Source: Trypanosoma brucei
Taxonomy: Eukaryota
Length of the DNA stretch: 64,000 bases
Direction of reading: 5' to 3'
Assembly: GCA_000002445.1 (NCBI GenBank)
Contig: CP000071.1
Span: 192,001 to 256,000 of the forward strand
Within the stretch, counting starts at the first letter, position 1; each line of letters opens with the position of its first letter. Under the pieces are notes generated by a model. That model was not told the origin of the DNA. It made no database searches and saw nothing but the letters and a program-made list of their open reading frames with translations. Both the position numbers and the translations under genes were made by a program. Of this stretch, positions 11,348-19,317 are shown in pieces.

Positions 11348-11830
11348 TCATTCAAAGGCATTTACGCATGATTCCACTACATTTAAGAGGTTTGTGTTTT
11401 CTAACGCAGCAGCCACACGTTCCTTGTCGCCAAGTTGTTTGTTTACCTGCTCCTCCTGTTCGTGTGATCCAGGTGTAACGCATATGTCAACTTTCATATT
11501 GCGCGGTAAGCACCTTTTGAGTTTGAGACCAATGCAAAGGCCAATTAGTGTGGTTAAACTGCAATGTGGAACTGTAGGAGTGAATTGGACACGCACCGTT
11601 TGTCTTTCCTCATCCACACTAATCAGTTTTGGGTCAACAACCTGAAGTTCCTCCAATGTATTGGGATGTTCCGGGTCACGAATGGTGCGAATCAGTTCAT
11701 AAATTTCCAACCCGTCGATGGGGTCCCTTACATCTTCGCAGAGTTCCTCCTTTTCCTGTTCAACTGTCCGTTTCCGCTTCCCCAAATTGCCGCGAAAGAC
11801 AGTGGGATTGGGATTGACGAGTTCCTCCAT
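11348..11830 (-). CDS. MIP18/FAM96 family (DUF59) protein, a cytosolic Fe-S cluster assembly CIA2-type factor
   Basis: [12 protein letters not shown]...[30 protein letters not shown]...[29 protein letters not shown]...[43 protein letters not shown]. The DPEHP and TPTVPHCS hallmarks and near-colinearity with human FAM96A/B are evident. Start is chosen at the internal ATG (11828-11830), because the upstream 22 codons of the track ORF ([15 protein letters not shown]...) are translated poly-T spacer. Confidence 0.8.
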
Positions 11831-12634: not shown

Positions 12635-13396
12635 TTAGAACCGCCCCCGCTTCCGATCGTTATTATTTCCGTTAAAGTTTGGTTTCGACTTGTTCCGCGG
12701 GGGTTCCTGGACGCCCCTCTGCTGCTGTTTGCTCTGCTGGGCCACATGCCCTTCGGATTTGCCCACCTTTTGTTTCTTAGCGGGGGGTTCCTCGTCCTCA
12801 TCCTCCTCCTTTTCTTGATCATCATCATCCTCATCTTCATCTTCATCATCTTCATCTTCATCATCTTCGTCATCTTCATCATCTTCCTCATCTTCGTCAT
12901 CGTCATCGTCACTGTCGTCTGTACGATCTACGACCTGTTGGCGCTTCGTTGCTGCGTTACCGTTCTTTTTCCCGTCTGTGAGTGGTACGCCTGCCATGTC
13001 ATCACCATCATCCAATCCCGTGTCTTCCCCTTCTTCTTCCTCCTCCTCCTCCTCAGCGTTGTCGTATTCCCCACTTCCACTCAAAGCAGCGGAAAGCATT
13101 CCTTCCGACTCCTGCTGATACCCACAACAATGAAGAACAGCATTTCCCTTCACACGGAAGACAACTTCTTGTTCATAACCAAAAACGATATCGACGGGAG
13201 TTTGCATCAGTTGCTGAGAAACGTCAAGAGTGAGAAGAGAAAACGATTCACCATCAACTGTCACATACAACGTGCTGCGGCCCTTCACACCGTGCTTTAC
13301 AGAAACAACAGAAAGGTGAAATGAGTGATGCTTTTCCAGCACCAACTTGTGTTCCTTGCCCGGAACGACCTCGAAACCATGAAACATGGGCGCCAT
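12635..13396 (-). CDS. Nucleoplasmin-like (HD2/FKBP-NPL type) acidic nuclear protein with a basic C-terminal tail ending RKRGRF
   Basis: The N-terminus MAPMFHGFEVVPGKEHKLVLEKHHSFHLSVVSVKHG...STLYVTVDGESFSLLTLDVSQQLMQTPVDIVFGYEQEVVFRVKGNAVLHCCGYQ matches the plant HD2 / insect FKBP39 NPL pattern (FWG.EV.PG ... L.H.SQA ... L.V.V.......LGTLS ... DLVF..E.E.......GSVY..GY). It is followed by poly-Glu/Asp tracts and a Lys/Arg-rich end. Confidence 0.75.
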   Translation of the reverse strand: MAPMFHGFEVVPGKEHKLVLEKHHSFHLSVVSVKHGVKGRSTLYVTVDGESFSLLTLDVSQQLMQTPVDIVFGYEQEVVFRVKGNAVLHCCGYQQESEGMLSAALSGSGEYDNAEEEEEEEEGEDTGLDDGDDMAGVPLTDGKKNGNAATKRQQVVDRTDDSDDDDDEDEEDDEDDEDDEDEDDEDEDEDDDDQEKEEDEDEEPPAKKQKVGKSEGHVAQQSKQQQRGVQEPPRNKSKPNFNGNNNDRKRGRF

Positions 13397-14139
13397 TGCT
13401 TTCTCACTTTATGCTTTTCGGTAGAGCACAAACTTGAAAAAAATATCGGGTTTCAGTTACGAAAGTAAAAAAAACGAATAATCGGATAGAAGGGGAAAAC
13501 AAAGTAAAGGAGGGATTGAAACCAGCAATAAGAGTATTAAAGAAAAAAATTAGTAGCAGCAGGTCTTGGCAAACTGAACAGTTATCAATCAACCCAATAG
13601 GCCATAGCCACCTGCAAGAAAAAAGAAGGGAGGGTCAATAAACAGAAAACTAATGCGAAGAGAACACACACCACACGTCCAATGATTTAAAAAAAAACAA
13701 AAGAGAATTGCACAGGCACATGACCCCGCACTTCACTCAAACATTAACTACCTGAAGGAAAGAAAAAAACAACATACAACGAATTACGTCACACCCTATA
13801 ACATAACATCATCATCGAAAGTACAAGTTCGCATGCCTTAGTACAACCAAAAATTAAATTTTATATCGTTACAAATGGTCAACCAACCAAAAGACACGAA
13901 AATAGATTATTCAAGATGCAATTTATGAACAGTTTGAAACGCAATCAACAAAAACAGAGAAAGATTCGCAATAAGATTTAACATATCGACTAAAAACGAA
14001 AAAAAAAAGATCAATTAGTTGTGGCCTACAAGCAAACAACAACAAATTTACAAACGATGATAGAGCAAAAGGAACAACAATATTCCAAGAGGATTAATAA
14101 CTGAAGTGAAACAACAGGTCATATTACAAAGAGCGCCAG

Positions 14140-14199
14140 NNNNNNNNNNNNNNNNNNNNNNNNNNNNNNNNNNNNNNNNNNNNNNNNNNNNNNNNNNNN
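14140..14199. other. Assembly gap (60 N) inside a NOPP44/46 gene copy
   Basis: A literal run of n. The flanks do not join colinearly: the left flank is unique sequence and the right flank resumes inside the NOPP N-terminal domain. Confidence 0.99.
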
Positions 14200-14469
14200 A
14201 GTCAAATGCACTGAGCCAGAACCCGTGGCGGAAAGAGTGGTTCCCTGCTCTGCGGTTAACACGAGGTCGATGCCCATTTGAAATAGGCTCCGCTTGGGGT
14301 CAAGCGTGGCAATGGTAAATTCCTTCCCCTGAAAGGATATCACAAGAGTAATAGCACCACTTGCATTCGCAGGCACAGCAATTTGTGTGAGACGAAGTAC
14401 GTGGTCTTCGGGTATCTTCGGTTTGACCTTCTGCCCGGCACTCACTTCAACACCGTAGAAACCCTTCAC
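14200..14469 (-). CDS. NOPP44/46-type gene copy, N-terminal NPL-like domain only. It is truncated by the assembly gap, and its canonical start codon is replaced (ATG GAG GGT becomes GTG AAG GGT), so it is a possible pseudogene or has an alternative start.
   Basis: It encodes ...VKGFYGVEVSAGQKVKPKIPEDHVLRLTQIAVPANASGAITLVISFQGKEFTIATLDPKRSLFQMGIDLVLTAEQGTTLSATGSGSVHLT, identical to residues 2-90 of the 16921-17907 gene, and then runs into the Ns. The 5' flank (14470-14870) is unrelated to the 5' flanks of the other copies. Confidence 0.5.
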
Positions 14470-14870
14470 AAATGTTAAATGCAATACGCCTTTACTAATG
14501 GAAAATACAAAATGAATCGGAGACAACGGTGAAAGCATAGATAAGGGAAAGCGTAACACTGACGTACGCTACCAAACAATAGGCAAACACAGGGAAAAAA
14601 CACAGTCACATTCAATGTGTCGAAACCTCTGTGTTTTTCTGTTACCAAGCCACCTCCATGACAGGCAAATCATGTCACATCACGAACGCTTTCATTTTCG
14701 AACGCTTAATTACCATTATAGAAGCCCAAATAATCATTATTTCTACCCCACCCAATCCCATTTATGTCTCAGTTTCTTCTTCGCTCGTAAAATATCTCTG
14801 CATTTAGATGCGTTACCGATGTTTTCGTTGCTAAAACACATACTAACAAATAACAACAAATATTTACCAC

Positions 14871-15195
14871 AACTGAAGGTAGAGAAATGTGGTCGCTCAA
14901 GCGGTGCATGTCAGTACAAGCACAAACATTAATAACAATATCACAATTTCTCCATGCCTCCACGTGCAACACAACATCCGAACATGAGGGGATATATCGT
15001 CATCACACGTATCAATCATAGAACACGAGTGTAATAAGAGGTTAGCCTCGTAGTCAAATGCATAAACGGGAATAATAATGAGGCATATATCACGTATTCC
15101 ATAAGATTACTCTCTCAGTTACAACAATGCGGCACATCACATGGCACATATATCATTTTTAGTAACGACCCCTCCCAGAGTTCCCGCCGCGGAAT
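14871..15195. repeat. Copy 1 of a repeated 3'-flank/3'-end module of the NOPP array (about 325 bp shared by three gene copies)
   Basis: The string caactgaaggtagagaaatgtggtcgctcaagcggtgcatgtcagtacaagcacaaac...catttttagtaacgacccctcccagagttcccgcc recurs near-identically at 16633-16957 and 18296-18606. Confidence 0.9.
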
Positions 15196-16259
15196 CCACC
15201 TCTATTCCAGACCGCATTTGTTCCGCCTCTTCCGCTGTAAGGGGGCAGAGTGCGAGATGCATCGTTTAGGTGGTGATTTGGTGGGAAAGGATAGTTGTTT
15301 CGGCTGGAATAGGGATGAAAACCCCTATTTATTGCAGCAAACCCCCTTCCTAACAAATTGCTTGACATTCCTTGCCACTCACCCCCGCTATACAAGTACC
15401 TTTCTTCATTGGTATATCCCCTTCTCATTTCACCATTTGCTTGCCCTCTATACCCGCCACCCATGTAACCTCTTCCCCTACTTGAATACCCACCTCTCCC
15501 GTACCCTCTGTTCATTCCCAACTGATCCGCTTCATGGATTGGTTCATTATAAATGGCACCGAAACCACCTTGGGAAGAAGTGCTATTTATTCTCTGACGT
15601 CCACGTTGCCTGAAAAAACCCTGATGAACACCGCCGTACCCTCCTTCACCGTTGTAACGAAAGTAACCTCCCCGACGATATCTATGCTCATCCACGTGTT
15701 GTTCGTTGTGAAACTCGACTCCTCCCTCATGCCTAATTTTTGAAGGTCGCTCTTCGCCCTTATCGCCTCTCTTCCCAATTTTTTCCACACCATCATCAAC
15801 GCTCACAATACCTTCAACATCATAGTCACTTTCGCTGGTATTGTTTGAACTTTGCACTGATGTTTTACAAGCGGGCGCTACGCCACGAAAAGGCGGCGGC
15901 GCCATTTTCTCGAATGGGACACCACTGCAAATCTCACCACCGCAACTTGACTCACCATCCGTAACATTCTCAATAGGTTGTATATATCCAGTCACATGCA
16001 CTGAGCCGTTGCCAGTGGCGGAAAGAATAATATTCTGCTCTGCTTTAATCACAAGGTCAATCCCCATTTGCGATACATTCCTCACAGGATCAAGAGAAGC
16101 GATAGTAAATTCTTTACCCTGAAGGGAAACGACAAGAGAGACGGCATCACTTGTATTCGCAGGCACAGCAATTTGTGTGAGACGAAGTACGTTACCCTCC
16201 GGTATCTCTGGAATAACTTTCTCCCCGACGCTCACTTCAACACCGTAGAAACCCTCCAT
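15159..16259 (-). CDS. NOPP44/46-related paralog. It keeps the NPL-like N-terminal domain, has no acidic tract, and ends in a Tyr/Gly/Arg-rich low-complexity (RGG/YG, FUS-like) tail with RGGNSGRGRY.
   Basis: The N-terminus MEGFYGVEVSVGEKVIPEIPEGNVLRLTQIAVPANTSDAVSLVVSLQGKEFTIASLDPVRNVSQMGIDLVIKAEQNIILSATGNGSVHVTGYIQP is about 75% identical to the NOPP copy at 16921-17907. The tail is ...YRRGGYFRYNGEGGYGGVHQGFF...NRGYGRGGYSSRGRGYMGGGYRGQANGEMRRGY...NRGGFRGGNSGRGRY. The last ~12 codons and the 3' flank are identical to the NOPP copy. Confidence 0.8.
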   Translation of the reverse strand: MEGFYGVEVSVGEKVIPEIPEGNVLRLTQIAVPANTSDAVSLVVSLQGKEFTIASLDPVRNVSQMGIDLVIKAEQNIILSATGNGSVHVTGYIQPIENVTDGESSCGGEICSGVPFEKMAPPPFRGVAPACKTSVQSSNNTSESDYDVEGIVSVDDGVEKIGKRGDKGEERPSKIRHEGGVEFHNEQHVDEHRYRRGGYFRYNGEGGYGGVHQGFFRQRGRQRINSTSSQGGFGAIYNEPIHEADQLGMNRGYGRGGYSSRGRGYMGGGYRGQANGEMRRGYTNEERYLYSGGEWQGMSSNLLGRGFAAINRGFHPYSSRNNYPFPPNHHLNDASRTLPPYSGRGGTNAVWNRGGFRGGNSGRGRY

Positions 16260-16486
16260 TGCTGCCGATTGGAATGTAATTTATCTATCACCATTGCAAG
16301 TAAAAAATAATATAAACGAAAAAAGAAAACAAAACGGCACATGTTTCACGAAGCAGAAGGAGAATAGTCAAAAAAATTCAAAAAAAAAGATGTTAGGGCA
16401 ACGTAGCGCCATCTGGACAACCAGAAGCCGCAACTTCAGAAACTCCGAACGATCATTCTTACGATAGTAACGCTAGGAAGAATTCA

Positions 16487-16957
16487 CTCTCATCATTATC
16501 CTTTGTTATCATTATTATTCTTATTCACGCTGATTCATCGTTTATATTTTCTCTCCTTATATTACTCAACCATTTCTTTAGTGTCCTCTAACGCTGTCCA
16601 TAATTTCAAGCGCAAGAAAAACGTTGCACTACAACTGAAGGTAGAGAAATGTGGTCGCTCAAGCGGTGCATGTCAGTACAAGCACAAACATTAATAACAA
16701 TATCACAATTTCTCCATGCCTCCACGTGCAACACAACATCCGAACATGAGGGGATATATCGTCATCACACGTATCAATCATAGAACACGAGTGTAATAAG
16801 AGGTTAGCCTCGTAGTCAAATGCATAAACGGGAATAATAATGAGGCATATATCACGTATTCCATAAGATTACCCTCTCAGTTACAACAATGCGGCACATC
16901 ACATGGCACATATATCATTTTTAGTAACGACCCCTCCCAGAGTTCCCGCCACGGAAG
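16487..16957. repeat. Copy 2 of the array intergenic/3'-end repeat (about 470 bp shared with 18149-18606; the 3' 325 bp is also shared with 14871-15195)
   Basis: Direct comparison of the three regions. It starts at ctctcatcattatcctttgttatcattattattcttattcacgctg... Confidence 0.9.
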
Positions 16958-17907
16958 TTGCCGCGATTCCCGCCACGGAAGTTACCACGGTTTCCTCCAC
17001 GATCCCCGCCACGGAAGTTGCCACGGTTTCCTCCACGATCTCCGCCACGGAAGTTTCCACGGTTTCCTCCGTTACCACTTCGGTCTCCGCCGCGGAAGTT
17101 TCCACGGTTTCCTCCACGGTCTCCGCCACGGAACCCTCCGCGATTACCACCGTTACCGTTTCGGTCCCCACCACGGAACCCCCCGCGATTACCACCACGG
17201 AACCCTTGTTGCTCAGTGCGTTGCACTTTACTGGCTGGCTCATCATCATCATCGTCATCATCATCATCATCATCATCATCGTCATCGTCATCGTCATTAT
17301 CATTATCATTATCATCTTCTTCATCATCGTCATCGTCATCGTCATCGTCACTGTCGTCTTCATCGTAGGCTTCATCATCATCATCATTGTCGTCTTCGTC
17401 ACCCGCGTCAATTCCTTCATTGTCCTTTTCAATACCTTCCTCGTCATCGGATTCGTCGTCTCCATCGACGCCGTCACCATTTGCTTCATCGGAATTCTCT
17501 TCGCTTACAGGAAACTTGGCAGATTTCCCTCCTCTTTTCGGGGGAACTCCGTAGGATTCCATATCTTCAGCATCCACCTCATCGAGATCATCTTCCTCAT
17601 CAAAATCACTTCCATCATCAACAGGTTGAACGTATCCAGTCAAATGCACTGAGCCAGAACCCGTGGCGGAAAGAGTGGTTCCCTGCTCTGCGGTTAACAC
17701 GAGGTCGATGCCCATTTGAAATAGGCTCCGCTTGGGGTCAAGCGTGGCAATGGTAAATTCCTTCCCCTGAAAGGATATCACAAGAGTAATAGCACCACTT
17801 GCATTCGCAGGCACAGCAATTTGTGTGAGACGAAGTACGTGGTCTTCGGGTATCTTCGGTTTGACCTTCTGCCCGGCACTCACTTCAACACCGTAGAAAC
17901 CCTCCAT
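16921..17907 (-). CDS. NOPP44/46: Nucleolar phosphoprotein NOPP44/46-type: NPL-like N-terminal domain, long Asp/Glu tract and C-terminal RGG/RGN repeats
   Basis: MEGFYGVEVSAGQKVKPKIPEDHVLRLTQIAV...GSVHLTGYVQP, then an acidic region (over 40 consecutive Asp residues encoded by GAT/GAC repeats), then roughly 11 RGGF/RGGN/RGNF repeat units, ending GGNSGRGRY. This domain order matches the described T. brucei NOPP44/46. Confidence 0.85.
   Translation of the reverse strand: MEGFYGVEVSAGQKVKPKIPEDHVLRLTQIAVPANASGAITLVISFQGKEFTIATLDPKRSLFQMGIDLVLTAEQGTTLSATGSGSVHLTGYVQPVDDGSDFDEEDDLDEVDAEDMESYGVPPKRGGKSAKFPVSEENSDEANGDGVDGDDESDDEEGIEKDNEGIDAGDEDDNDDDDEAYDEDDSDDDDDDDDDEEDDNDNDNDDDDDDDDDDDDDDDDDDEPASKVQRTEQQGFRGGNRGGFRGGDRNGNGGNRGGFRGGDRGGNRGNFRGGDRSGNGGNRGNFRGGDRGGNRGNFRGGDRGGNRGNFRGGNRGNFRGGNSGRGRY
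16945..17215. repeat. Coding minisatellite: periodic repeats of about 30-36 nt encoding the (GGDRGGNRGNFR)n RGG box
   Basis: Recurring ccgccacggaagttgccacggtttcctccacgatc units on the plus strand. Confidence 0.85.
17241..17365. repeat. Coding trinucleotide repeat (ATC/GTC on plus, equal to GAT/GAC, encoding poly-Asp)
   Basis: catcatcatcatcgtcatcatcatcatcatcatcatcgtcatcgtcatcgtcattatcattatcatt... read directly. Confidence 0.9.
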
Positions 17908-18148
17908 TGCTGCCGATTGGAATGTAATTTATCTACCACCATTGCAAGACAAAGTCAGGTATTGCGAGGAAAGAGAGAAAAGGTTACAAACTCCAAGGGG
18001 CAAAGAGTAAAAAATACAAAAAAAAACACCGCCATCGGACAAAACACACAAAATGAAAGTGTTATTACCCAAAAGTAAGTACCAGGAAACAGATTCCATT
18101 ATATGCAAAGCGACCTATCACCTTCTTCCACATCCTCTGTCCCTCCCA

Positions 18149-18606
18149 CTCTCATCATTATCCTTTGTTATCATTATTATTCTTATTCACGCTGATTCAT
18201 CGTTTATATTTTCTCTCCTTATATTACTCAACCATTTCTTTAGTGTCCTCTAACGCTGTCCATAATTTCAAGCGCAAGAAAAACGTTGCACTACAACTGA
18301 AGGTAGAGAAATGTGGTCGCTCAAGCGGTGCATGTCAGTACAAGCACAAACATTAATAACAATATCACAATTTCTCCATGCCTCCACGTGCAACACAACA
18401 TCCGAACATGAGGGGATATATCGTCATCACACGTATCAATCATAGAACACGAGTGTAATAAGAGGTTAGCCTCGTAGTCAAATGCATAAACGGGAATAAT
18501 AATGAGGCATATATCACGTATTCCATAAGATTACCCTCTCAGTTACAACAATGCGGCACATCACATGGCACATATATCATTTTTAGTAACGACACCTCCC
18601 AGAGTT
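18149..18606. repeat. Copy 3 of the array repeat, ending in the last 8 codons of a further NOPP copy and then a gap
   Basis: Identical to 16487-16945 except for occasional single-base differences (for example gacacctccc versus gacccctccc). Confidence 0.9.
18583..18606 (-). CDS. 3'-terminal fragment (…NSGRCRY-stop) of an additional NOPP44/46 copy whose body is lost in the assembly gap
   Basis: The minus strand reads aactctgggaggtgtcgttactaa, giving N S G R C R Y stop, colinear with the C-terminus of the 16921-17907 gene. The 60 N follow immediately. Confidence 0.45.
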   Translation of the reverse strand, partial: NSGRCRY

Positions 18607-18666
18607 NNNNNNNNNNNNNNNNNNNNNNNNNNNNNNNNNNNNNNNNNNNNNNNNNNNNNNNNNNNN
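18607..18666. other. Assembly gap (60 N) at the upstream edge of the NOPP array
   Basis: Literal n run. The sequence after the gap is unique, not NOPP-like. Confidence 0.99.
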
Positions 18667-19317
18667 ACCTTCGCACAGCCTCTGTTGGGTGGGCAAACCT
18701 CTGGCAGAAGGGAGTGGATAAGATCTCTTGCGCCACGCACATCGTCCCACGACGTACAGTGAATATTGCCTTTCTCTTCATCCGTACTGTTGGGAAACTA
18801 AGCGCCTGCGATTATATACACCAACTCTGTGACTATTGTTGTCGGCGAAGCATCCCAGAAGGAGGTTCCTCATAAAGTTAACATTCACCTACAAATACGG
18901 CACGCTAAGGTGGGTGGTGAAGAAACGGGAAGGTCCGGTGACAGTAATTTGTCTACTTTTGAGGGAAATCACCAGATGTAACCGAACCACTTTGCATCTT
19001 TGGTGGCGGAGATCCGCATGATTCAGAGAACGCCTTTCATCGGTATTTTCGTCCCCACCTATTCAAACTATGGTTTAGCTTATCATTACTGTGGAAACCT
19101 TCTCCGTCTCGTTTTTCTAGAAACAGCAGTGTACTATGCTGTGCTTTCAGCGGGACAAGAGGTGGAGGGCCAAAGTACGTACCTTTTCAATTTATACACT
19201 ACATTATCTTGCAATGTGGGATGGTCCCACCATAATACAAGTTTTCTATTGTTTTGTTGGTGTTTTCGCGGAGCAATGACGAACCTTCACTTATTTTCGC
19301 GTTTGATCTATGCTCCC

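What the first reader, a model, noticed from the sequence alone, without database searches (positions are those of the whole stretch)
12635..18700. Collapsed tandem array of nucleoplasmin-fold acidic nucleolar protein genes with two assembly gaps
Four NOPP-type units are visible: 14200-14469 (N-term only, cut by a gap), 15159-16259, 16921-17907 and an 18583-18606 C-terminal stub cut by a gap. A distinct NPL-type gene sits at 12635-13396. The units share 325-470-bp flank repeats. Both 60-N gaps sit exactly where a repeat unit would continue, so the true copy number and the order of variant copies are unresolved. Copy-number and variant content of such arrays are often strain-variable.
Basis: seen in the sequence. 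Interest (0 to 1): 0.6.

Follow-up and report, generated by a model that had tools for sequence, protein, structure and literature searches.

The report
Known trypanosome NOPP44/46 gene cluster
This is the already-described Trypanosoma brucei chromosome-8 cluster of nucleolar NOPP44/46 genes, and its two half-copies next to the N-gaps are real end-pieces of the cluster (they join the flanking DNA directly in three related genomes), so it is an ordinary, known locus.

Summary
There are three complete nucleoplasmin-like (NPL) domain genes on the minus strand, a start-less 89-codon N-terminal copy, a 24-nt C-terminal stub, 99-100% identical flank repeats, and exactly two 60-N runs. The locus is the T. 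brucei chromosome-8 cluster Tb927.8.730-760, which includes NOPP44/46-1 and NOPP44/46-2. Jackson (2007) already catalogued it as array "64a".

The reading that the gaps cut these units is not supported. In T. b. gambiense DAL972, T. equiperdum IVM-t1 and two de novo T. equiperdum OVI contigs, the bases on either side of each gap are directly adjacent, with nothing between them. The two partial copies are therefore real relics at the ends of the cluster, and the N-runs sit on the repeat/unique boundaries.

DAL972 has the same gene order as the window and no gap. IVM-t1 has a different content: two NOPP44/46-1 genes, no complete NOPP44/46-2 and a mosaic relic. Strain variation by unequal crossing-over is therefore supported.

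Extra internal units in the reference strain cannot be excluded without reads, but nothing seen here requires them. NOPP44/46-2 is not acidic. The locus is ordinary and already known, so interest is low.

The parts
12635..13396 (-). Divergent NPL-domain acidic protein gene (253 aa; Tb927.8.730-type). It is the conserved distal member of the cluster.
   Evidence: ORF. Pfam NPL E = 6.7e-16. Exact match to TREU927 AAZ12844/XP_846910. pI 4.2 with a D/E run of 31. Orthologues at the same position in T. cruzi and L. donovani.
14140..14199 (.). 60-N placeholder gap 1. It sits exactly on the boundary between the shared NPL-coding repeat and unique downstream DNA.
   Evidence: The flanks are directly adjacent in DAL972 (L001 12060|12061), in IVM-t1 (L004 7708|7709) and in OVI contig L005.
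14200..14469 (-). Terminal relic: 89 codons of an NPL N-terminal domain. Codon 1 is GTG and codon 2 is AAG (full copies have ATG GAG). There is no acidic or RGG tail. In other assemblies it reads on into LALFVI-stop.
   Evidence: 100% identity to 17638-17903. Start-codon change seen. The same relic is annotated 'nucleolar RNA-binding protein, truncated' in DAL972 (P0004). DAL972's copy carries 2 private SNPs.
14470..14865 (-). Unique 396-bp 5' flank of the relic ('A' flank).
   Evidence: No other copy in the window. Present in DAL972 and OVI, absent from IVM-t1.
14866..15194 (-). Flank repeat copy 1: the last 36 nt of the NOPP44/46-2 coding sequence plus 293 nt of 3' flank.
   Evidence: 99.1% identical to 16628-16956 and to 18290-18606.
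15159..16259 (-). NOPP44/46-2 (Tb927.8.750; 366 aa): NPL core plus a non-acidic G/R/Y-rich tail.
   Evidence: ORF. Pfam NPL E = 8.4e-17. Exact match to AAZ12846, CBH13083 and SCU66017. Name from PMC6299225. pI 7.8.
16485..16956 (-). Flank repeat copy 2, an intergenic repeat of 460 bp in one pairing and 329 bp in the other. It includes the last 36 nt of the NOPP44/46-1 coding sequence.
   Evidence: 16485-16944 matches 18147-18606 at 99.8%. 16628-16956 matches 14866-15194 at 99.1%.
16921..17907 (-). NOPP44/46-1 (Tb927.8.760-type; 328 aa): NPL core, long Asp/Glu tract, then 14 RGG motifs in 36/81-nt repeats.
   Evidence: ORF. Pfam NPL E = 3.1e-18. Composition. Tandem repeats. 99-100% identical over aligned residues to the DAL972 323-aa and IVM-t1 325-aa ORFs. 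AF2 model pLDDT 94, TM about 0.8 to HDT, FKBP43-NTD and NPM1 cores.
18147..18606 (-). Flank repeat copy 3. It carries the 24-nt C-terminal coding stub (18583-18606, reading NSGRCRY-stop) and forms the upstream end of the cluster.
   Evidence: The stub-specific T (Cys) variant is shared with IVM-t1 and OVI contig L007.
18607..18666 (.). 60-N placeholder gap 2. It sits exactly on the boundary between unique upstream DNA and the first flank repeat.
   Evidence: The flanks are directly adjacent in DAL972 (L001 7667|7668), IVM-t1 (L004 3669|3670) and OVI contig L007.

Best explanation
The interval is the Trypanosoma brucei chromosome-8 NOPP44/46 cluster (Tb927.8.730-760). It lies in one minus-strand polycistronic unit, between the 639-aa gene upstream and the FeS-assembly gene downstream.

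The cluster is small and heterogeneous, not a long homogeneous array. In the direction of transcription it runs:
1. unique DNA
2. a 24-nt coding-end stub with a full intergenic repeat
3. NOPP44/46-1 (NPL core, Asp/Glu tract, RGG repeats)
4. an intergenic repeat
5. NOPP44/46-2 (NPL core, G/R/Y-rich tail)
6. a 3' repeat followed by a unique flank
7. a start-less 89-codon NPL relic
8. unique DNA
9. the divergent acidic NPL gene

The two partial copies are real relics at the ends of the cluster. The two 60-N runs are placeholder gaps on the repeat/unique boundaries. Relative to three related genomes, no sequence is missing at either one.

The cluster changes by unequal crossing-over and gene conversion. 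The substrates are the 99-100% identical intergenic repeats (329 and 460 bp), the 266-bp NPL-coding repeat and the 36/81-nt RGG repeats. This produces strain-specific gene numbers and tail lengths.

The proteins are inferred to work as nucleophosmin-like nucleolar oligomers. The NPL core is the oligomerisation platform and the acidic and RGG tails bind proteins and RNA. Published work places NOPP44/46 in 60S ribosomal subunit biogenesis.

Shown here: gene identities, the fold, the junction contiguity and the differences between strains. Inferred: the oligomeric state, the recombination mechanism, and that the reference strain has no further internal units.
For: Identity of the locus:
- Exact protein matches to TREU927, DAL972 and T. 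equiperdum.
- Gene names NOPP44/46-1 = Tb927.8.760 and NOPP44/46-2 = Tb927.8.750 (PMC6299225).
- Catalogued as array 64a 'nucleolar RNA-binding protein', with a divergent copy that keeps its orthology across species (PMC1855330).
- All ORFs over 250 aa in the window are on the minus strand.

Fold:
- Pfam NPL at E = 1e-16 to 1e-18.
- AF2 model with pLDDT 94.
- Foldseek TM about 0.8 to plant HDT1-4, the FKBP43 N-terminal domain, the NPM1 core and NO38.

Junctions:
- Zero bases lie between the gap flanks in DAL972 and IVM-t1.
- OVI de novo contigs L005 and L007 cross both junctions.
- IVM-t1 contigs were assembled de novo, and TREU927 was used only to order them (PMC6395869).
- The stub-specific SNP is shared by the window, IVM-t1 and OVI.
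- DAL972's relic has private SNPs, so it was assembled as a distinct copy.
- TREU927 carries 39 gaps totalling 3,590 N, so its N-runs are placeholders (PMC6742220).

Layout and dynamics:
- The gapless DAL972 locus aligns colinearly to window 18606-14200 at 99.5%.
- IVM-t1 has a duplicated NOPP44/46-1, a contracted RGG block and a mosaic NOPP2/NOPP1 relic. These are the products expected from crossover in the repeats.
- T. cruzi and L. donovani have only three NPL genes at the syntenic site.

Function: 60S biogenesis and growth defects on RNAi (PMC2864271; PMC6299225).
Against: - No reads or long-read assembly of the window's own strain could be examined, so extra internal units are not excluded.
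- The reference authors left gaps at repeats of 266 and 460 bp, which capillary reads should be able to span. That may mean they had evidence of unresolved size.
- In the window the relic is 100% identical to NOPP44/46-1 over 266 bp. This could be a collapsed consensus rather than recent gene conversion.
- OVI contig L002 joins the relic's unique 5' flank to a complete NOPP44/46-1 and then NOPP44/46-2. If that join is real, the two-gene unit repeats with a 3,438-bp period.
- The DAL972, OVI and IVM-t1 assemblies are themselves prone to repeat collapse.
- The pentameric state and nucleolar role are taken from homologues and the literature and were not tested here.
Confidence: 0.7

Rival explanations
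1. The gaps are real physical gaps in a collapsed array. Further [NOPP44/46-1 + NOPP44/46-2] units (period 3,438 bp) lie in the reference strain, most plausibly at gap 1. On this model the copy at 14200-14469 is the start of a full gene and the true relic is hidden.
For: - The gaps flank the cluster on both sides.
- Exact 266-bp identity between the relic and NOPP44/46-1 in the window.
- OVI contig L002 runs A flank, full NOPP44/46-1, NOPP44/46-2, then the 3' repeat, which is exactly one period bounded by the same repeat.
- Jackson (2007) warns that arrays may be collapsed in the TREU927 assembly.
- IVM-t1 shows that more than one NOPP44/46-1 gene can exist.
Against: - The gap flanks abut in three other genomes.
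- A-flank copies lack an ATG (GTG AAG) in the window, DAL972 and OVI, so the extra full-length copies would have no start codon.
- L002 carries the relic-type start but the NOPP44/46-1-type base near the 3' end of the repeat. A path switch inside a collapsed repeat would produce this.
- All OVI contigs are accounted for by the minimal layout, with each unique segment used once.
- DAL972 assembled the same order with no gap and with copy-specific SNPs.
- The syntenic clusters in T. cruzi and L. donovani hold only three genes.
Confidence: 0.25
2. The direct junctions seen in the other assemblies are artefacts. They were copied from the TREU927 reference by reference-guided assembly with the Ns removed, and so say nothing about the true structure.
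For: DAL972 contigs were ordered against TREU927. IVM-t1 chromosomes were built with TREU927 as the reference.
Against: - TREU927 was used only for ordering and annotation, and the contigs themselves were assembled de novo.
- The OVI contigs are unscaffolded de novo contigs of 8.5 and 42 kb, and they cross both junctions.
- The assemblies differ from the window by SNPs and indels on both sides of the junctions.
- IVM-t1 joins a different sequence, a NOPP2-type mosaic, to the same downstream base.
Confidence: 0.05

Closest known systems
T. brucei NOPP44/46 family, Tb927.8.730-760 (array '64a' of Jackson 2007)
   Same: The 253-aa and 366-aa protein sequences match exactly. The 328-aa NPL + acidic + RGG gene has the NOPP44/46-1 architecture. 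Neighbours, strand and gene order are the same as in DAL972.
   Different: Nothing of substance. The window is this locus. The only addition here is that the gap-adjacent partial copies are terminal relics rather than gap-truncated genes.
Nucleophosmin (NPM1/B23, Xenopus NO38) and the nucleoplasmin family
   Same: The predicted beta-sandwich core superposes at TM about 0.75-0.80. The core is followed by acidic tracts and then a nucleic-acid-binding C-terminal region. Both are nucleolar and act in large ribosomal subunit biogenesis (literature).
   Different: Sequence identity is only about 20%. The C-terminal RNA-binding part is an RGG repeat array, or a G/R/Y-rich tail, rather than NPM1's helical domain. 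Pentamer formation was not tested.
Plant HD2-type HDT1-4 and nucleolar FKBP (AtFKBP43, Drosophila FKBP39, yeast Fpr3/4) NPL domains (Pfam PF17800)
   Same: These are the best sequence and structure matches: 7vmf HDT2 at E = 0.002 by sequence, and TM 0.80-0.83 at 26-29% identity. They share the NPL core followed by an acidic stretch.
   Different: There is no zinc finger or FKBP domain. The tails are RGG or G/R/Y-rich instead.
Variable tandem gene arrays of T. brucei that evolve by unequal crossing-over and gene conversion (Jackson 2007; Jackson et al. 2010)
   Same: Near-identical intergenic repeats, mosaic copies, differences in content between subspecies, and expression by polycistronic transcription.
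   Different: This is a small cluster of functionally diverged paralogues with degenerate end-copies, not a long dosage array of identical genes.

Membership tests
NPL (nucleoplasmin-like) domain, Pfam PF17800 | Match to the family HMM above the gathering score | tested here: met
   59-67 bits against a cutoff of 23.4, for all three complete genes and the relic.
NPL (nucleoplasmin-like) domain, Pfam PF17800 | Nucleoplasmin-type beta-sandwich core fold | tested here: met
   AF2 model with pLDDT 94, all-beta with 7 DSSP strands. Foldseek probability 1.00 and TM 0.75-0.83 to HDT1-4, FKBP43-NTD, NPM1, NO38, PfNPM and FKBP39.
NPL (nucleoplasmin-like) domain, Pfam PF17800 | Pentamer (or decamer) assembly of the core | not testable with these tools
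   No multimer prediction or experiment was available. This is inferred from the homologues, which were solved as 5-chain assemblies.
Nucleoplasmin/nucleophosmin-type chaperone architecture | Acidic tract(s) following the core | tested here: met
   Met for NOPP44/46-1 (D/E run 19, pI 4.05) and for the 253-aa gene (D/E run 31, pI 4.2). Not met for NOPP44/46-2 (D/E run 2, pI 7.8) or for the relic, which has no tail.
T. brucei NOPP44/46 family (Tb927.8.730-760) | Sequence identity to the named gene products | tested here: met
   The 366-aa protein is an exact match to AAZ12846, CBH13083 and SCU66017. The 253-aa protein is an exact match to AAZ12844/XP_846910. The 328-aa protein is not in the collection but is 99-100% identical over aligned residues to the DAL972 and IVM-t1 ORFs at the same position.
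T. brucei NOPP44/46 family (Tb927.8.730-760) | Chromosomal position and neighbours | tested here: met
   Same order as DAL972 chromosome 8: 639-aa gene, NOPP1, NOPP2, truncated copy, NPL gene, FeS-assembly gene, 1377-aa RRM protein.
T. brucei NOPP44/46 family (Tb927.8.730-760) | Nucleolar localisation, tyrosine phosphorylation, and requirement for the 60S subunit | not testable with these tools
   Literature only (PMC6299225; PMC2864271).
Collapsed tandem array with true assembly gaps | N-runs adjacent to repeated sequence | tested here: met
   Both 60-N runs border repeats.
Collapsed tandem array with true assembly gaps | Sequence missing at the gaps relative to gap-free assemblies of close relatives | tested here: not met
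   There are 0 bases between the gap flanks in DAL972, IVM-t1 and the OVI contigs.
Collapsed tandem array with true assembly gaps | Excess read depth or long reads showing more units in the same strain | not testable with these tools
   No reads were available. The stored supplementary copy-number tables were cut off before chromosome 8.

The most novel reading that the evidence does not exclude
The start-less, tail-less NPL relic may not be inert. Its 89-codon reading frame is open in every Trypanozoon assembly examined, and its junction is intact in DAL972 and IVM-t1, with OVI contig L005 reaching 21 nt across it. It reads on into a short hydrophobic end (LALFVI) that could replace the missing half of the last beta-strand. 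In IVM-t1 it has a normal ATG and a NOPP44/46-2-type 5' region. L. donovani also encodes a 118-aa, essentially core-only NPL protein in the syntenic cluster. A core-only subunit could co-assemble with NOPP44/46-1 and -2 and dilute the number of acidic or RGG tails per oligomer.
Probability: 0.06. Interest if true: 0.4.

Novelty: already known. Interest (0 to 1): 0.12.

Why it matters
The practical value is for users of the reference genome.

- The two N-runs at this locus should not be read as evidence of missing genes. The 'truncated' model Tb927.8.740 is a real relic rather than a gap artefact.
- Anyone measuring NOPP44/46 dosage, designing RNAi or knockouts, or assigning peptides should note three things. 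NOPP44/46-1 and the relic share an identical 266-bp segment. All copies share near-identical 3' flanks. Strains differ in gene content: IVM-t1 appears to lack a complete NOPP44/46-2.

None of this changes current understanding of the biology.

Tried and rejected
- Protein-database searches for NOPP44/46-1 variants. The collection does not hold these low-complexity proteins, so no cDNA or strain variants could be retrieved.
- Exact look-up of the TREU927-type junction-spanning ORF.
- Look-up of the 253-aa gene's contig. Not on record, so the TREU927 record itself could not be fetched.
- Published copy numbers. Jensen 2005 is not held. The Fadda 2014 and Antwi 2016 supplementary tables are cut off before chromosome 8. 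One broad literature search was uninformative.
- Searches for 'Tb927.8.740' returned only Tb927.8.7400.
- A sensitive search for ancient homology between the relic's flanks (the A flank, the DNA downstream of the junction, the unique DNA upstream of the stub) and the other intergenic regions or coding sequences found nothing. The origin of the end-junctions stays open.
- Rfam scan of the window found no family. No cluster sequence occurs elsewhere in the window.
- Rejected: that the shared junctions are reference-propagated artefacts (see rival explanations).
- Rejected: that OVI contig L002 proves extra units. It is equally what a collapsed 266-bp repeat gives, and it would imply full-length genes with no start codon.
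Full report
**1. What is in the sequence**

On the minus strand there are complete ORFs at 12635-13396 (253 aa), 15159-16259 (366 aa) and 16921-17907 (328 aa).

A partial N-terminal copy lies at 14200-14469. Positions 14200-14465 are 100% identical to 17638-17903 over 266 bp. A 24-nt coding end (NSGRCRY-stop) lies at 18583-18606.

The window contains exactly two N-runs, 14140-14199 and 18607-18666, each of 60 N.

The flank repeats are real and nearly identical:
- 14866-15194 matches 16628-16956 (329 bp, 99.1%).
- 14866-15182 matches 18290-18606 (317 bp, 99.1%).
- 16485-16944 matches 18147-18606 (460 bp, 99.8%).

The N-terminal domains of the 366-aa and 328-aa genes are about 81% identical at the DNA level. 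All ORFs over 250 aa in the window lie on the minus strand, so this is a single polycistronic unit. No Rfam family matches the window, and no cluster sequence occurs elsewhere in it.

**2. What the genes are**

All four N-terminal units match Pfam NPL (PF17800) at E = 7e-16 to 3e-18. An AlphaFold2 model of residues 1-99 of the 328-aa protein has a mean pLDDT of 94 and is all-beta. By Foldseek it superposes at TM 0.75-0.83 on Arabidopsis HDT1-4, the FKBP43 N-terminal domain, the human NPM1 core, Xenopus NO38, Plasmodium nucleoplasmin and the Drosophila FKBP39 NPL domain. The best sequence match among solved structures is HDT2, 7vmf.

- The 366-aa protein is an exact match to entries from TREU927 (AAZ12846), T. 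b. gambiense DAL972 and T. equiperdum.
- The 253-aa protein is an exact match to TREU927 AAZ12844/XP_846910, on a 2,481,190-bp record.

The literature names Tb927.8.760 as NOPP44/46-1 and Tb927.8.750 as NOPP44/46-2 (PMC6299225). The neighbouring RRM protein fits Tb927.8.710 (DRBD17) by gene numbering. The window is therefore the chromosome-8 NOPP44/46 cluster of T. brucei TREU927 or a near-identical strain.

Jackson (2007) already lists it as tandem array 64a, 'nucleolar RNA-binding protein'. That paper describes mixed dynamics, with the divergent copy keeping its orthology across species and the others evolving together (PMC1855330).

The three complete genes have different tails:

| Gene | Size | Tail | pI |
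|---|---|---|---|
| NOPP44/46-1 | 328 aa | D/E run of 19, then 14 RGG motifs in 36/81-nt repeats | 4.05 |
| 253-aa gene | 253 aa | D/E run of 31, then a basic end | 4.2 |
| NOPP44/46-2 | 366 aa | G/R/Y-rich, no acidic tract | 7.8 |

'Acidic' therefore describes two of the three genes.

**3. The gaps**

I fetched the same locus from other Trypanozoon assemblies, using the single-copy flanking genes and the 366-aa gene as anchors.

- *T. b. gambiense* DAL972 (FN554971) has no Ns here. Window 18667 aligns to L001 7667 and window 18606 to L001 7668. Window 14200 aligns to L001 12060 and window 14139 to L001 12061. Nothing lies between the gap flanks. The interior aligns colinearly to window 18606-14200 at 99.5%, giving the same order: stub, NOPP44/46-1 (323 aa), NOPP44/46-2, relic, NPL gene.
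- *T. equiperdum* IVM-t1 (GCA_003543875.1) shows the same two direct junctions (L004 3669|3670 and 7708|7709) but has a different interior.
- Two unscaffolded de novo contigs of *T. equiperdum* OVI cross the junctions independently. L005 begins 21 nt inside the NPL repeat and runs across gap 1 (TCTGGCTCAGTGCATTTGACT|CTGGCGCTC...). L007 (42 kb) runs from unique upstream DNA across gap 2 and on for 692 nt, at 100% identity to window 18606-17915.

The stub carries a copy-specific base (GGTGTCG, giving Cys) that the window shares with IVM-t1 and OVI next to the same unique sequence. DAL972's relic has two private SNPs relative to its NOPP44/46-1, so it was assembled as a distinct copy.

The contigs of these assemblies were built de novo. 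TREU927 served only to order them (PMC2854126; PMC6395869). Reference propagation therefore does not explain the shared junctions.

The partial copies are genuine terminal relics, and the N-runs sit exactly on the repeat/unique boundaries. The TREU927 reference is reported to hold 39 gaps with 3,590 ambiguous bases in total, so such runs are short placeholders rather than measured sizes (PMC6742220).

**4. The relic**

The relic's first two codons are GTG AAG, where the full genes have ATG GAG. This holds in the window, DAL972 and OVI.

Its 396-bp 5' flank (14470-14865) is unrelated to the other 5' regions. Homology to the full genes covers only codons 2-89.

The truncation falls inside the last strand of the modelled core, which spans residues 86-95. 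The frame then reads on into LALFVI-stop. DAL972's annotators called this gene 'nucleolar RNA-binding protein, truncated'.

**5. Is anything still hidden?**

This cannot be settled without reads from the window's own strain.

Points in favour of extra units:
- Gaps exist at repeats that capillary reads should span.
- The relic and NOPP44/46-1 are exactly identical over 266 bp in the window.
- OVI contig L002 links the relic's unique 5' flank to a complete NOPP44/46-1 and then NOPP44/46-2, ending in the same 3' repeat in which it began. That is one 3,438-bp period.

Points against:
- L002 has the relic-type start but the NOPP44/46-1-type base near the 3' end of the shared repeat. A path switch inside a collapsed 266-bp repeat would give this.
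- The three OVI contigs are fully explained by the minimal layout, with each unique segment used once.
- If L002 were real, the extra full-length copies would have no start codon.
- DAL972 assembled the minimal layout without a gap.
- At the syntenic site, T. cruzi and L. donovani each have only three NPL genes, lying between the orthologue of the upstream gene and the FeS-assembly gene. T. cruzi has two NOPP44/46-1-like genes plus one 730-like gene. L. donovani has a core-only 118-aa gene, one NOPP44/46-1-like gene and one 730-like gene.

I put the minimal layout at about 0.7 and hidden internal units at about 0.25.

**6. Dynamics**

IVM-t1 differs from the window in ways that match recombination in the repeats:
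- It has two NOPP44/46-1 genes. Each is preceded by the same intergenic repeat and NOPP44/46-1-type 5' region, which indicates duplication by crossover between intergenic repeats.
- One of the two has its RGG block contracted (251 aa against 325 aa).
- It has no complete NOPP44/46-2.
- Its relic starts as NOPP44/46-2 (with an ATG) and switches to NOPP44/46-1-type sequence before the same junction. This indicates a deletion by crossover between NPL-coding repeats.

Caveat: IVM-t1 is mostly a MiSeq assembly with only 7,508 PacBio reads, so some of this could be collapse. The acidic tract also varies in length between assemblies: 328, 325 and 323 aa.

**7. Mechanism of the proteins**

By fold and architecture, the proteins are nucleophosmin-like. 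They have an oligomerising NPL core, acidic tracts, and a nucleic-acid-binding tail that is RGG-rich or G/R/Y-rich.

Published work reports the following:
- NOPP44/46 is a trypanosome-specific nucleolar phosphoprotein family implicated in 60S maturation.
- NOPP44/46-1 is heavily arginine-methylated.
- Both NOPP44/46-1 and -2 are recovered in mRNA-bound proteomes.
- RNAi against Tb927.8.760 impairs growth.

These points come from PMC6299225 and PMC2864271. Oligomeric state and function were not tested here.

From memory and unverified: the original description (Das et al. 1996, J Biol Chem) reported a multigene family whose 44- and 46-kDa products differ in the repeat region. The paper is not in the held library.

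**8. Verdict**

The family assignment and the strain variability are right. The 'cut by gaps' inference is not supported, and 'collapsed' remains unproven. The locus is already known and ordinary, so interest is low.

Noticed in passing
window 14466-14469 and 14470-14865; L001 11701-12081: The truncated copy has GTG AAG where the full genes have ATG GAG. Its 396-bp 5' flank is unrelated to the other 5' regions. DAL972's annotators used an upstream in-frame ATG to call a 119-aa 'truncated' protein.
   Followed up: partly
L004 4369-5124, 5800-6777, 7439-7729: T. equiperdum IVM-t1 has two NOPP44/46-1 genes (251 aa with a contracted RGG block, and 325 aa) and no complete NOPP44/46-2. Its relic is a mosaic that starts with an ATG in NOPP44/46-2-type sequence and ends in NOPP44/46-1-type sequence. 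This may be a real loss of NOPP44/46-2 or an assembly collapse.
   Followed up: partly
L009 10001-15233; L010 8336-14767: The cluster is syntenic in T. cruzi and L. donovani, with three NPL genes next to the FeS-assembly gene. No counterpart of the non-acidic G/R/Y-rich NOPP44/46-2 was seen there. L. donovani has a 118-aa, essentially core-only NPL gene. One T. cruzi copy is frameshifted in its RGG region, and the L. donovani NOPP1-like ORF (346 aa) is annotated as only 204 aa.
   Followed up: partly
window 11348-11830 (-): A 160-aa FeS_assembly_P (PF01883) protein gene lies immediately downstream of the cluster. It is identical in DAL972, IVM-t1 and OVI and made a useful single-copy anchor.
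   Followed up: yes
window 14866-15194, 16628-16956, 18290-18606: The last 36 nt of the coding sequence plus about 290 nt of 3' flank are 99% identical between NOPP44/46-1 and NOPP44/46-2, although their coding bodies are unrelated beyond the NPL domain. This suggests conversion or selection acting specifically on the shared C-terminal GGNSGRGRY motif and the 3' UTR.
   Followed up: no
protein collection: NOPP44/46-1-type proteins from the window, DAL972 and IVM-t1 are absent from the 15-billion-sequence collection, while their neighbours are present. Low-complexity filtering is the likely cause. Homology searches will therefore under-report this family.
   Followed up: partly
L002 1049-1068; L005 2831-2856: The OVI contigs carry their own short N-runs: 20 N inside the acidic tract of NOPP44/46-1 and 26 N just after the FeS-assembly gene. 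These contigs are therefore small scaffolds rather than fully contiguous sequence.
   Followed up: no
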